Below are positions 3 to 1,713 of a stretch of 1,713 bases of DNA, piece by piece; within the stretch, counting starts at the first letter, position 1; each line of letters starts with the position of its first letter. The notes beneath the pieces were generated by a model. That model saw only the letters and a program-made list of their open reading frames with translations, searched no databases and was not told the origin of the DNA. The translations under genes were made by a program, and so were the position numbers. Origin of the DNA: Naegleria gruberi (taxonomy: Eukaryota); assembly GCA_000004985.1 (NCBI GenBank), contig GG739281.1; one strand, written 5' to 3'.

Positions 3-290
3 CAACTCACAGCAGATTTGAGAAAACAAGCTCAAATTTTCTTTGAAAAGAGATCGATGGATCAACTTAAACAAAATTCTGGAAGGTGGAAGGATAGATT
101 CAATGATATTACATCATCATTATCAACTGATAATAATAGTGAAAATATTAATACAACCAGAAGTTTTGAAGCTACTGATACTACTACTAATAATAATAAC
201 TCAACAAGAAGCAATGAAAATAGTTTAAAGAGAAAGGAAACACAAGATGTTAATCTATTCGGAGGTATGAAAAAGAAACGAAAACAATAA
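3..290 (+). CDS. 3' terminal part of an upstream protein-coding gene, 5'-partial. The product is Asn/Ser/Thr-rich and low-complexity: ...TDNNSENINTTRSFEATDTTTNNNNSTRSNENSLKRKETQDVNLFGGMKKKRKQ*
   Basis: Frame 0 is open from base 3 to TAA 288-290. The ORF-track start at 18 is a TTG, so it is an artefact of a prokaryotic start table; the true start lies upstream of the window. Codon usage (AAT, AAC, ACT, AGA, CAA) is consistent with the downstream gene. The basic C-terminal KKKRKQ could act as a nuclear localisation signal (NLS). The overlapping ORFs 43-228(+) and 62-349(-) are low-complexity shadows of this frame. Confidence 0.55.
   Translation, partial: QLTADLRKQAQIFFEKRSMDQLKQNSGRWKDRFNDITSSLSTDNNSENINTTRSFEATDTTTNNNNSTRSNENSLKRKETQDVNLFGGMKKKRKQ
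180..200 (+). repeat. In-frame trinucleotide microsatellite (ACT)3(AAT)3AAC encoding TTTNNNN, inside a wider Asn-rich tract
   Basis: The sequence actactactaataataataac was read directly, and the codon phase was checked against frame 0. Confidence 0.7.
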
Positions 291-291: not shown

Positions 292-330
292 GTTTATTGT
301 TATCTTCCAACTGCCAGATGTCATCAGGCA

Positions 331-343
331 AGGATAAAAAAAA
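331..343 (+). promoter_or_regulatory. Translation-initiation context for ATG 344: AGGA (331-334) followed by an A9 homopolymer (336-344). It reads as a Shine-Dalgarno-like site with 9-nt spacing in a bacterium, or as an A-rich Kozak-type context in an AT-rich eukaryote.
   Basis: Read directly: caAGGAtaaaaaaaaATG. A frame-2 stop TAA 335-337 sits just upstream, so ATG 344 is the first possible start of that ORF. Confidence 0.3.
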
Positions 344-484
344 ATGCAAAAACGAGTAATTTCTGTTGTTGTGGTTTCAATTTTAATAATAGGAGCAATT
401 TTTCTCTATTATTCTAATCTTTCTCGGAATCATAAACAAGCCAATAATAACGTTGTCATTTCAACTACTGTGGCTAACCTTTGA
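344..484 (+). CDS. 46-aa ORF encoding a short basic cytoplasmic tail plus one transmembrane helix (signal-anchor, type-II topology): MQKRVISVVVVSILIIGAIFLYYSNLSRNHKQANNNVVISTTVANL*. It is either a stand-alone small membrane protein or the first (TM-anchor) coding segment of the downstream gene.
   Basis: Runs from ATG 344-346 to TGA 482-484, translated codon by codon. The 19-residue hydrophobic core VISVVVVSILIIGAIFLYY is preceded by the positive residues K and R (positive-inside rule). It lies in the same genomic frame (position mod 3 = 2) as the long downstream ORF. At 46 aa it fell below the ORF-track length cut-off. Confidence 0.4.
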   Translation: MQKRVISVVVVSILIIGAIFLYYSNLSRNHKQANNNVVISTTVANL

Positions 485-847
485 AATGCAAGTTTTTATT
501 TTAAGAAGAGCAAGTAAGTATTTATAGATTGGCAAGTTTCTGCTAATGAAAGGCAACCAGAATCTAATTTTAGTTTTCTTAGAAATTTGAAAATCACACA
601 CCAACCCTGTGAAATATCTGTCAAGTAACACCTCTCAATAAACCTATTAAAAATTCAAAATATTTAAAGAAAACAATCTATCATCACTGAGACCTCGGAA
701 AACAATTATTCGCCCAAGATTTATTCCAACTAATAAATTCTCAATTCCCCATTTCAGAATTACACATATTGCTTTTCTTACAATAATGTCTTTAAATTTG
801 TTGCCAGATGTTATTATTTTATGATGATACTTAATGGTAATAAGTGA
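485..847. other. Non-coding spacer, either an intergenic region or intron sequence. Stop codons occur in all three + frames and all three - frames.
   Basis: Stops enumerated by hand. On the + strand they occur in frame 0 at 525, 588, 627, 639, 648, 822 and 825; in frame 1 at 502, 544, 547, 565, 571, 580, 610, 688, 784, 793, 832, 838 and 841; and in frame 2 at 515, 665, 731, 734 and 845. Complements of stops on the - strand occur in every frame. GC is about 29%, containing GC-richer islands such as cacacaccaaccctgtg and gacctcgg and cgcccaag. Confidence 0.6.
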
Positions 848-961
848 TGGTGTACAATCAAATCTATTTTAAGAATTGCCAATTCATCATACTTGCCATT
901 CTATAATTATATTCTTGCTCTTCTTAAAATAAAAACTTGCATTTCATACCTCATCGACAGT

Positions 962-1713
962 AAGGTCAGAGAACAAACATCTTCACAACAAGAACCAAAA
1001 GTCATTGAAAAGATTATTGAAAAGACAATAGAAATACCAGTAGAAAAGATAGTTGAAAAGATAATAGAAAAACCGTGTGCAACAAGTCAATCCAACGATA
1101 ATAACTTGTCCAAATTTTCAGAATTTTTAAAAAATGATCAATTAAAAGCAATTGAATTGACTAAACAAATTGCTAGTGGAAATGTTAAAAATCCAGCAGT
1201 TCATTTAGTAACTCAATTATTTGGAAATATGGAAAATGATCATTATGTGGATATGTTGGCAGCAATTCAATTAAATCTTTTCAATCCATTTGTTGAAAAA
1301 GTTCACCTCCTTCAAGAGAATGATGCAAACGATCAAGATTTAAAGAAATTAATTGGACAAGAAAAACTTGTCATTCACATGCTAGGTCATCGTATTACAG
1401 TTGGTGATTTTATGAGATATTGTAATGAAAAATTACCACAAAAAATTGTAGGACTCATTAATACTGATGTTTATTTTGATAATACCCTGGTTGAGTTACA
1501 TAGAATGCCACATCAAACTGCATATGTTATTTCAAGAAAGGAAACTCTAGTTGGTAATAAGCCAGATCCAATTAATAATAGAGATCAATGTGGTGGTTAT
1601 CAAGGTTCACATGATGCTTTCATTTTCAGGAATAAGGATAAATTTGGAGATTCAATCATTGACAAGTTGAATAATATTAATTTGGGATATATGGGTACTG
1701 AAAATGTTATTTT
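962..1713 (+). CDS. Internal or 3'-open part of a protein-coding gene; both ends are incomplete or uncertain. Translation: KVREQTSSQQEPKVIEKIIEKTIEIPVEKIVEKIIEKPCATSQSNDNNLSKFSEFLKNDQLKAIELTKQIASGNVKNPAVHLVTQLFGNMENDHYVDMLAAIQLNLFNPFVEKVHLLQENDANDQDLKKLIGQEKLVIHMLGHRITVGDFMRYCNEKLPQKIVGLINTDVYFDNTLVELHRMPHQTAYVISRKETLVGNKPDPINNRDQCGGYQGSHDAFIFRNKDKFGDSIIDKLNNINLGYMGTENVI... The architecture is a low-complexity EK/SN-rich stem followed by a globular domain, possibly a DXD-type glycosyltransferase fold.
   Basis: Frame 2 (codon starts with position mod 3 = 2) contains no stop from 848 to the window end, 288 codons, checked line by line. At about 7.6% stop frequency per random codon, the 89 stop-free codons between 962 and the first in-frame ATG at 1229 have probability of roughly 1e-3. 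Coding therefore extends upstream of any ATG. The 5' boundary is uncertain: the frame is open from 848, but 848-961 translates to the atypical WCTIKSILRIANSSYLPFYNYILALLKIKTCISYLIDS, so it may be non-coding. The ORF track missed this ORF because the window contains no stop for it. Confidence 0.75.
1001..1072 (+). repeat. Six tandem copies of a 12-nt unit (gtcattgaaaag / attattgaaaag / acaatagaaata / ccagtagaaaag / atagttgaaaag / ataatagaaaaa). They encode a tetrapeptide repeat (V/I/T/P)(I/V)E(K/I): VIEK IIEK TIEI PVEK IVEK IIEK.
   Basis: Direct reading of the sequence; the repeat is in phase with the coding frame. Confidence 0.8.

What the first reader, a model, noticed from the sequence alone, without database searches (positions are those of the whole stretch)
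848..1228. Long ORF with strong coding signal but no usable start codon: about 89-127 codons of clear coding sequence lie upstream of the first in-frame ATG
Frame 2 is stop-free from 848 to the window end. The only in-frame ATGs are at 1229 and later (1253, 1379, 1412, 1505, 1691). The in-frame TTG at 893 has no Shine-Dalgarno. The segment 962-1228 shows clear periodicity, charged EK repeats, and a chance probability of staying open of about 1e-3, so the gene must begin upstream by a mechanism a simple ORF scan cannot see. The candidates are splicing from a short 5' exon, a TGA=Trp code, a non-ATG start, or a disrupted gene. Each is developed as its own finding below.
Basis: seen in the sequence. 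Interest (0 to 1): 0.6.

Follow-up and report, generated by a model that had tools for sequence, protein, structure and literature searches.

The report
Mobile element splits a glycosyltransferase gene
The open reading frame seems to lack a start codon because a 495-base transposon-like element with inverted-repeat ends and TA flanks sits inside the gene, cutting off the first 41 codons, which begin at ATG 344; this is a familiar kind of event.

Summary
Frame 2 is stop-free from 848 to 1713, and its first in-frame ATG is at 1229. The cause is not a hidden start.

A 72-nt inverted repeat (arms 466-537 and 891-962, 85% complementary, 33-nt perfect core) bounds a non-coding element of about 495 nt. 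It begins TA|CTGT and ends ACAG|TA.

Deleting it and keeping one TA joins ATG 344..467 to 963.. in frame, in the standard code. The result is MQKR + a 19-residue membrane anchor + an EK-rich stalk + a conserved domain.

That architecture matches the homologues: 342 hits, the best from Naegleria gruberi at 42% identity. The modelled domain has a GT-A glycosyltransferase fold. Its first beta-strand lies upstream of the Met at 1229, so 1229 is not the start.

Codons 848-961 belong to the element and are open by chance. TGA 482 and GTAAGT 514 are also inside the element.

The structure is well supported (about 0.85). How the organism handles the insert is unresolved. My estimates are a plain recent MITE-type insertion, giving an interrupted allele (about 0.5), a ciliate-type germline eliminated sequence (about 0.2), or a transposon-derived intron (about 0.13). 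The source organism could not be identified.

The parts
344..467 (+). 5' part of the coding sequence: ATG, a basic MQKR tail, the membrane anchor VISVVVVSILIIGAIFLYY and the start of the stalk. It is in the same frame (frame 2) as the long ORF.
   Evidence: ORF 344..484. Codon-position score is +0.18 in frame 2 and -0.52/-0.38 in the other phases. Kyte-Doolittle 19-residue maximum is 2.69. It is modelled as a helix with pLDDT 81-94. It aligns with the N-terminal anchors of homologues P0008, P0005, P0010, P0011, P0013-16, P0020 and P0026.
466..467 (.). Left TA, a putative target-site duplication
   Evidence: Complementarity between the two arms stops exactly outside the TA.
468..962 (.). Inserted 495-nt non-autonomous inverted-repeat element. 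It can equally be written 466-960, because the TA is duplicated.
   Evidence: Inverted repeat I1. No ORF longer than 56 aa. Codon-position score negative in all phases. DNA fold z = -7.6. It contains all the frame-2 stops from 482 to 845.
466..537 (.). Left terminal inverted repeat, TACTGTGGCT... It contains TGA 482-484 and GTAAGT 514-519.
   Evidence: 61 of 72 positions are complementary to 891-962, with a 33-nt perfect core. In 300 Markov-1 random sequences the longest exact inverted word averaged 12.5 and never exceeded 24.
891..962 (.). Right terminal inverted repeat, ...CATCGACAGTA, including the right TA at 961-962
963..1183 (+). 3' part of the coding sequence: the stalk, including the EK-rich repeats at 988-1074
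   Evidence: Open frame 2 with a positive codon-position score. Direct repeats D1 and D2. Sub-threshold Pfam IMCp match, E = 6e-4, 20.5 bits against a 21.1-bit cut-off. Low pLDDT for residues 41-83.
1184..1713 (+). Conserved GT-A-fold domain, which runs off the window. The first in-frame ATG (1229) lies inside it.

Best explanation
SHOWN. A eukaryote-type gene for a type II membrane-anchored protein with a GT-A glycosyltransferase fold starts at ATG 344. It is interrupted after codon 41 by a 495-nt, TA-flanked, non-coding element with 72-nt terminal inverted repeats. [quoted passage not shown] The ORF 'without a start' (848/963-1713) is simply the part of the gene downstream of the insert. Its first 38 codons are element sequence that happens to be open. 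Removing the element and leaving one TA gives ...TCA ACT A|AG GTC AGA... This is one 291+ codon ORF in the standard code (MQKR..VVIST|KVREQ..).

INFERRED. In the DNA as given, translation from ATG 344 would stop at TGA 482, inside the element, so this copy cannot make the full protein. I take it to be most likely a recent transposon insertion, that is an interrupted or null allele, or one disrupted member of a gene family. Both halves are still intact, all conserved residues are retained, and the repeat core is perfect over 33 nt. My confidence in the structure is about 0.85. My confidence that it is a plain, unremoved insertion rather than a programmed removal is about 0.5.
For: The inverted repeat 466-537/891-962 is 85% complementary, and complementarity ends exactly at TA on both sides. 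It far exceeds random expectation: 33 nt exact against a maximum of 24 in 300 random sequences. It also exceeds the best inverted repeats in 12.8 kb of similar eukaryote-like DNA, which were 25-42 nt at 71-76%. Fold z = -7.6.

Both flanks are in frame 2, and the in-silico join has no stop. The coding signal is positive in 344-466 and from 962 on, and negative in every phase in between.

The upstream piece supplies what the homologues have: a basic tail plus a strongly hydrophobic anchor (KD 2.69), then stalk, then domain. The AF2 model (pLDDT 79.9) places beta-strand 1 at residues 121-125, before Met131 (ATG 1229). The fold is GT-A. All ten conserved family residues are present. The element has no ORF longer than 56 aa.
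Against: No second copy of the element was found anywhere. A 24-mer from the repeat core is absent from the viral, metagenome and prokaryote genome collections. The source genome is unknown, so multi-copy status, the hallmark of a transposon family, is untested.

A disruptive insertion in an otherwise perfectly intact gene is uncommon in ordinary genomes. It is routine in ciliate germlines and in introner-rich protists. No empty-site allele or transcript could be examined. A 2-nt TA duplication is weak evidence by itself in 70% A+T DNA.
Confidence: 0.5

Rival explanations
1. Germline internal eliminated sequence (IES) of a ciliate. The window would be micronuclear-type DNA, and the TA-bounded element would be cut out precisely at the DNA level during development of the somatic nucleus. 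That restores the gene, as with the MITE-type IESs ('MITIES') described in Blepharisma and the TA-IESs of Paramecium and Euplotes.
For: TA sits at both boundaries, and TA-to-TA deletion restores the frame exactly. Both ends read TACTG, which fits the 5'-TAYNR-3' motif quoted for Paramecium IESs in 10.1101/2022.05.02.489906. They match 7 of 8 positions of TAYAGYNR (from my own knowledge). That paper describes intragenic MITE-derived IESs and many palindromic IESs, with IES GC equal to somatic GC; here the element is 29.1% GC and the exons 28-30%. The DNA is compact and AT-rich, with 53 nt between the upstream stop and ATG 344. The stalk repeat resembles alveolin repeats (IMCp, E = 6e-4). Both halves of the gene are fully intact.
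Against: There is no positive evidence that the host is a ciliate. All 24 Gln codons are CAA, none TAA or TAG, and the upstream gene ends at TAA, which excludes the Paramecium, Tetrahymena and Oxytricha codes. The best homologue is from Naegleria, and others are from Euglena and a coral. The IMCp hit is below Pfam's cut-off and lies in a low-complexity lumenal stalk. The element is unrelated to BogoMITE, whose repeat is poly-C.
Confidence: 0.2
2. Transposon-derived intron (introner-like, or a non-canonical intron paired through its inverted repeats). The element would be transcribed and removed from the pre-mRNA, so the gene is functional.
For: Introners are MITE-like elements with terminal inverted repeats and target duplications that sit in coding exons (PMC11282704; PMC9860276). 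The termini CT|GT...ACAG| provide a GT and a YAG, and a pyrimidine-rich run (tttcatacctcatcgacag) precedes the right end. GT 470 to AG 963-964 removes exactly 495 nt and keeps the frame, giving ..STT|VREQ... The 72-bp pairing would bring the two ends together in RNA. Euglenid non-conventional introns use such pairing and carry duplication-like repeats at their junctions, and the protein family occurs in Discoba.
Against: The frame-preserving donor ACT|GTGGCT is poor. The first AG after the pyrimidine run (959-960) would leave ACT|TAA, an immediate stop. The only consensus donor, GTAAGT 514, leaves TGA 482 in the mRNA. 165 in-frame ATG/GT/AG combinations exist by chance, so an in-frame pair carries little weight. 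No other intron in the window shows what this organism's splice sites look like. The euglenid +4..+6 CAG / -8..-6 CTG pattern is not met.
Confidence: 0.13
3. An ordinary spliceosomal intron, GTAAGT 514 to AG 960, with the in-frame TGA 482 read as an amino acid (a TGA=Trp code or selenocysteine). The inverted repeat would be incidental.
For: The donor matches the consensus GTAAGT, and the acceptor has a pyrimidine run. Both are in phase 2 with frame 2, giving ..VANLWNASFYFKKSN|KVREQ...
Against: It needs a second special assumption (a recoded TGA) for which the window gives no support: there are no in-frame TGA codons and only one TGG in 386 codons. Being in phase and stop-free over 15 codons has roughly a 10% chance. 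It leaves unexplained why a 72-nt inverted repeat ends precisely at TA at both edges of the coding signal. The donor lies inside the left repeat arm, and the matching position of the right arm lacks it.
Confidence: 0.04
4. The ORF starts within what I call the element or later. Either ATG 821 is the start with TGA 845 read as Trp (a Mollicutes- or Blepharisma-type code), or ATG 1229 is the start and the upstream openness is chance.
For: Under translation table 4, ATG 821..1713 is a complete start-to-edge ORF. ATG 1229 is the first standard in-frame start.
Against: 848-961 scores as non-coding in all phases. The alternative N-terminus has no anchor-grade hydrophobic stretch (KD 1.24 against 2.69). 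A start at 1229 would delete beta-strand 1 and the conserved VHLVTQLFG block that aligns in most homologues. The family is eukaryotic. 291-820 would then be almost empty, which is unlike a bacterial genome.
Confidence: 0.03

Closest known systems
Stowaway-like / Tc1-mariner-pogo-derived MITEs (TA target-site duplication)
   Same: It is small (495 nt) and non-coding. It has long terminal inverted repeats with TA on both sides, ends (TA-CTGT) that resemble Tc1-type TA-CAGT, and strong hairpin potential.
   Different: Only one copy is known and no autonomous partner has been found. The repeats are unusually long (72 nt), with a poorly matched outer 10 nt and a perfect inner 33 nt. It lies inside a coding exon rather than the usual position near a gene or in an intron.
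MITE-type internal eliminated sequences of ciliates ('MITIES', Blepharisma stoltei; TA-IESs of Paramecium and Euplotes)
   Same: It is intragenic and TA-bounded, with inverted-repeat ends. Precise TA-to-TA removal restores the ORF. Both ends fit TAYNR. Its GC content equals that of the flanking DNA.
   Different: The host is not shown to be a ciliate. There is no germline-versus-somatic comparison. The sequence is unrelated to BogoMITE. No ciliate-type codon reassignment is visible.
Introner elements and MITE-derived non-canonical introns (Micromonas, Aureococcus, dinoflagellates, Fritillaria borealis, euglenid non-conventional introns)
   Same: It is a transposon with terminal inverted repeats and a target duplication, sitting in a coding exon between two intact exon halves. 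The ends could pair in RNA. GT and AG lie at or near the termini.
   Different: The terminal GT-AG pair would leave +4 nt and a stop codon. The frame-preserving pair has a weak donor. No family of copies and no RNA evidence is available.
Golgi-type type II membrane GT-A glycosyltransferases
   Same: It has a short basic N-terminus, a single signal-anchor helix, a low-complexity stalk and a GT-A Rossmann-like domain with conserved acidic residues (D210, D214, H258-D259).
   Different: The family matches no Pfam model and no solved structure by sequence. There is no strict DxD motif, and the donor and acceptor substrates are unknown.

Membership tests
MITE (non-autonomous DNA transposon, TA-targeting Tc1/mariner/pogo type) | Terminal inverted repeats | tested here: met
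   72-nt arms, 61/72 complementary, with a 33-nt perfect core. This is well beyond random expectation and the control loci.
MITE (non-autonomous DNA transposon, TA-targeting Tc1/mariner/pogo type) | TA target-site duplication directly outside the repeats | tested here: met
   TA at 466-467 and at 961-962. The bases outside do not pair, and no longer direct repeat is present. A 2-nt repeat is weak evidence in AT-rich DNA.
MITE (non-autonomous DNA transposon, TA-targeting Tc1/mariner/pogo type) | Small size and no transposase gene | tested here: met
   495 nt. The longest ORF is 56 aa, and there is no coding signal in any + phase.
MITE (non-autonomous DNA transposon, TA-targeting Tc1/mariner/pogo type) | Many related copies in the same genome, and an autonomous relative sharing the repeat ends | tested here: inconclusive
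   The repeat-core 24-mer is absent from the viral, metagenome and prokaryote genome collections. However, the window itself is also absent from them, so the source genome was never searched.
Ciliate internal eliminated sequence (TA-bounded) | TA at both boundaries, with precise removal restoring the coding frame | tested here: met
   The in-silico TA-to-TA deletion gives one open 291-codon frame.
Ciliate internal eliminated sequence (TA-bounded) | Terminal consensus (TAYNR / TAYAGYNR in Paramecium) | tested here: inconclusive
   Both ends read TACTG, which fits TAYNR (motif as quoted). TACTGTGG and TACTGTCG match 7 of 8 positions of TAYAGYNR. The motif is short and is shared with Tc1-type transposon ends.
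Ciliate internal eliminated sequence (TA-bounded) | Host is a ciliate; the element is present in germline DNA and absent from somatic DNA | not testable with these tools
   The source is unknown. There are 0 TAA/TAG among 24 Gln codons, and the best homologue is from Naegleria. Only a sub-threshold alveolin-like repeat points towards alveolates.
Introner / transposon-derived spliceosomal intron | Splice sites at or next to the element ends that remove it cleanly from the mRNA | tested here: inconclusive
   GT470-AG960 leaves a TAA. GT470-AG964 keeps the frame but has the weak donor GTGGCT. GTAAGT514 leaves TGA482 in the transcript.
Introner / transposon-derived spliceosomal intron | Numerous near-identical copies inside genes, and spliced transcripts | not testable with these tools
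   Neither the source genome nor RNA data is available.
GT-A fold glycosyltransferase with type II membrane topology | GT-A (nucleotide-diphospho-sugar transferase) fold | tested here: met
GT-A fold glycosyltransferase with type II membrane topology | DxD-type metal/nucleotide-sugar binding motif | tested here: inconclusive
   The near-invariant residues are N208, D210 and D214 (NTDVYFD), which is D-x3-D rather than a strict DxD.
GT-A fold glycosyltransferase with type II membrane topology | N-terminal signal anchor followed by a stalk | tested here: met
   Met only after joining 344-467 to 963 onward: KD 2.69 over residues 5-23, a modelled helix, and a disordered stalk at residues 41-83. Homologues share this layout.
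GT-A fold glycosyltransferase with type II membrane topology | Glycosyl transfer activity | not testable with these tools
   No characterised member exists. There is no Pfam, PDB-sequence or named match.

The most novel reading that the evidence does not exclude
The element is not a lesion but is removed precisely and routinely. One route is at the DNA level, as a MITE-type eliminated sequence in a ciliate that uses the standard stop codons. The other is at the RNA level, as a MITE-derived and possibly non-canonical intron whose 72-bp terminal pairing brings the junctions together, in a poorly sampled protist related to Discoba. Either would make this a working gene that carries a young 'tamed' transposon, in a lineage where such systems have not been described.
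Probability: 0.33. Interest if true: 0.55.

Novelty: new member of a known kind. Interest (0 to 1): 0.35.

Why it matters
For annotation, the finding explains an apparently start-less ORF and gives the correct gene model: ATG 344, a join at TA 467|963, a type II anchor and a GT-A domain. It also shows that a consensus-looking GTAAGT...CAG pair can mislead when it lies inside a transposon.

For biology, it documents an uncharacterised, widely scattered eukaryotic family with a GT-A glycosyltransferase fold (Naegleria, Euglena, a coral and many environmental sequences). It also documents a previously unseen TA-flanked inverted-repeat element.

If the element proved to be removed programmatically, it would be a clean, young example of how transposons become eliminated sequences or introns. 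As a plain insertion it is ordinary.

Tried and rejected
1. Alternative genetic codes (tables 4, 6, 10, 15, 27-31). No single reassignment bridges 482-845 except codes that make all three stop codons sense. Those are contradicted by 24 CAA against 0 TAA/TAG Gln codons and by the TAA end of the upstream gene.

2. Exhaustive listing of ATG/GT/AG combinations. 165 in-frame solutions exist, so the listing is not informative on its own.

3. Finding the source contig. An exact 40-mer from the coding sequence is absent from the viral, metagenome and prokaryote genome collections. Exact-protein look-ups of the 46-aa ORF and of the upstream 95-aa fragment found nothing.

4. Finding other copies of the element. 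The repeat-core 24-mer gave no hits. blastn of the window against two homologue-bearing loci gave only chance matches.

5. Word-indexed protein searches gave only repeat-driven hits, no hits, or three family members. The exhaustive HMMER search was what found the family.

6. The search for related loci in viral contigs found no relatives.

7. Rfam and tRNA scans of the whole window found nothing, so there is no known RNA gene in the element.

8. Pfam on the window's proteins and on ten homologues found no family, apart from a sub-threshold IMCp match and TPR/GT41 in one fusion protein. A PDB sequence-profile search found nothing.

9. The Blepharisma BogoMITE was rejected as the identity of the element. 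Its repeats are poly-C and its flanking duplication is TAA/TTA.

10. A MITE inside a pre-existing intron was rejected, because the coding signal and open frame run right up to both ends of the element.

Full report
**Observation.** The window is 1713 nt and about 30% G+C throughout. Frame 2 of the + strand has stops at 335, 482 (TGA), 515, 626, 665, 731, 734 and 845 (TGA). It has none from 848 to the end of the window. Over those 288 codons the other two + frames carry 20 and 37 stops. The description is therefore correct.

**What the ORF encodes.** Pfam gives only a sub-threshold match of the EK-rich repeat to alveolin (IMCp, 20.5 bits against a 21.1-bit cut-off). Word-indexed searches were swamped by that repeat or found nothing.

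An exhaustive HMMER search with 1082-1711 found 342 relatives. The best is a Naegleria gruberi predicted protein, XP_002673121, at 42% identity. Others come from Euglena longa, the coral Xenia and many environmental assemblies. None matches a Pfam family or a solved structure by sequence.

Most alignments begin at residues 35-57 of that query, which is nt 1184-1250. In the multiple alignment the conserved block starts at AVHLVTQLFG (nt ~1196), ahead of the Met at 1229.

**Where it begins.** Many homologues start with a short basic tail and a single hydrophobic anchor, followed by a variable stalk. The window has exactly such a piece on the same strand and in the same frame: ATG 344, MQKR-VISVVVVSILIIGAIFLYY-SNLSRNHKQ.... 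Its Kyte-Doolittle maximum is 2.69.

It lies 53 nt downstream of the TAA that ends an upstream gene (3-290, frame 3). A codon-position score trained on the secure coding parts gives these values:
- 344-466: +0.18 in frame 2, strongly negative in the other phases.
- 467-961: negative in all three phases.
- 962 onward: positive again in frame 2.

**What separates the two pieces.** The repeat scan found an inverted repeat with arms 466-537 and 891-962. It is 72 nt long and 85% complementary. Written out, the left end is TACTGTGGCT... and the reverse complement of the right end is TACTGTCGAT... Of 72 positions, 61 match, with a perfect run of 33. Complementarity stops exactly outside the TA on each side.

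Three controls show this is not chance:
- In 300 Markov-1 random sequences the longest exact inverted word averaged 12.5 nt and never exceeded 24.
- In 12.8 kb of similar-composition eukaryote-like DNA carrying two homologues, the best inverted repeats were 25-42 nt at 71-76%.
- The segment folds with z = -7.6.

The interior has no ORF above 56 aa and no Rfam or tRNA match. The anatomy is that of a non-autonomous DNA transposon of the TA-targeting Tc1/mariner/pogo kind, a Stowaway-like MITE. It has TA, long terminal inverted repeats, about 0.5 kb and no gene.

Deleting 468-962 (495 nt, or 3 x 165) and keeping one TA gives ...TCA ACT A|AG GTC AGA GAA... This reads MQKR...NNNVVIST|KVREQTSSQQEPK..., one uninterrupted frame in the standard code. 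Every frame-2 stop between 482 and 845 lies inside the element, and so does the GTAAGT at 514. Codons 848-961 are the element's right end. The other two frames have only two stops each over the same 38 codons, so that stretch being open is unremarkable.

- TGA=Trp alone fails, because five TAA codons remain in frame.
- Ciliate codes that read TAA and TAG as Gln are contradicted: all 24 Gln codons are CAA, and the upstream gene ends at TAA.
- A conventional intron from GTAAGT 514 to AG 960 is in phase on both sides, but it keeps TGA 482 in the message.
- Donors upstream of 482 are weak. With 165 in-frame ATG/GT/AG combinations available by chance, an in-frame pair proves little.
- 'Disrupted gene' is the candidate that fits, with a specific cause.

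**How it most likely works.** The structure described above is shown. What the organism does with the insert is inferred.

(a) Plain insertion. Translation from ATG 344 ends at TGA 482, so this copy is a null allele or a recently disrupted family member. Both halves are intact. All ten invariant or near-invariant family residues are present. The repeat core is perfect, and the mismatches are clustered rather than scattered. All of this fits a young insertion. I give this about 0.5.

(b) A ciliate germline eliminated sequence. The points in favour are TA boundaries, ends fitting the TAYNR motif quoted for Paramecium, and the precedent of intragenic MITE-type IESs. In that precedent IES GC equals somatic GC (10.1101/2022.05.02.489906). 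The DNA is also compact and AT-rich, and the stalk has an alveolin-like repeat. Against this, nothing shows the host is a ciliate, and the nearest relatives of the protein are from Naegleria and Euglena. I give this about 0.2.

(c) A transposon-derived intron. Introners and the MITE-derived non-canonical introns of Fritillaria and euglenids have this anatomy (PMC11282704; PMC9860276). GT470-AG964 would remove exactly 495 nt in frame. However, that donor is poor, the nearer AG 960 gives an immediate TAA, and the best donor leaves a stop. I give this about 0.13.

The remaining readings are a recoded TGA with a normal intron, and a start at ATG 821 or ATG 1229. Together they get less than 0.1.

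**Limits.** The source could not be identified. The window is absent from the viral, metagenome and prokaryote genome collections. Its small ORFs are not on record. No other copy of the repeat core exists in those collections. Copy number, empty sites and transcripts therefore remain untested. These are the decisive experiments.

**Verdict.** The finding is real and now has an ordinary explanation. A MITE-like element splits a gene for a type II membrane protein with a GT-A glycosyltransferase fold, and the start codon sits upstream of the insert. It is a new member of known kinds, in both the element and the protein family. Interest is moderate to low unless the insert proves to be removed programmatically.

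Noticed in passing
window 3-290 (+), spacer 291-343: This is the C-terminal 95 codons of an upstream gene. It is N/T/S-rich and low in complexity, with a basic tail KKKRKQ, and it ends at TAA 288-290. AATAAA (286-291) overlaps the stop. Only 53 nt separate the stop from ATG 344, which implies a very compact genome or very short UTRs.
   Followed up: partly
window 318-359 (+): An out-of-frame upstream ATG (318; MSSGKDKKKCKNE*, frame 3) overlaps ATG 344. Either transcription starts downstream of 318 or this is a small upstream ORF.
   Followed up: no
window 988-1074 (+): Tandem 36/48-nt repeats encode (E/P)K(I/V)(I/V)EK units in the stalk (EPKVIEKIIEKTIEIPVEKIVEKIIEKP). They give a near-threshold match to the alveolin IMCp family (20.5 bits against 21.1), although the region is predicted to be a lumenal, disordered stalk.
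   Followed up: partly
window 453-527 (+) and 907-1005 (-): Because of the inverted repeat, both strands encode the same peptide (EMQVFILRRA) in short mirror-image ORFs. This can mislead ORF-based gene callers.
   Followed up: no
window 601-800: The interior of the element is strongly C-rich and G-poor (GC skew -0.49), unlike its flanks. The cause is unknown.
   Followed up: no
L001 1119-1760 and L002 2507-3091: Two environmental homologues (P0008 and P0006, on contigs with 33% GC) have ORFs that stop at the same alignment column, just after the conserved ISR motif. No downstream continuation was detectable by tblastn. This could be a shared intron position or truncated copies.
   Followed up: partly
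P0021 (1289 aa, Logan assembly): One family member carries this domain at its C-terminus, after TPR repeats and a GT41 (O-GlcNAc-transferase-like) domain. That independently links the domain to glycosylation.
   Followed up: no
P0003 (Naegleria gruberi XP_002673121) residues 1-60: The annotated N-terminus of the best homologue has no membrane anchor and looks non-coding (..NFYNYQLKTSLLRPFSVDYFF..). Its gene model may have the same missing-first-exon problem. The N. gruberi DNA could not be fetched, so this was not checked.
   Followed up: no
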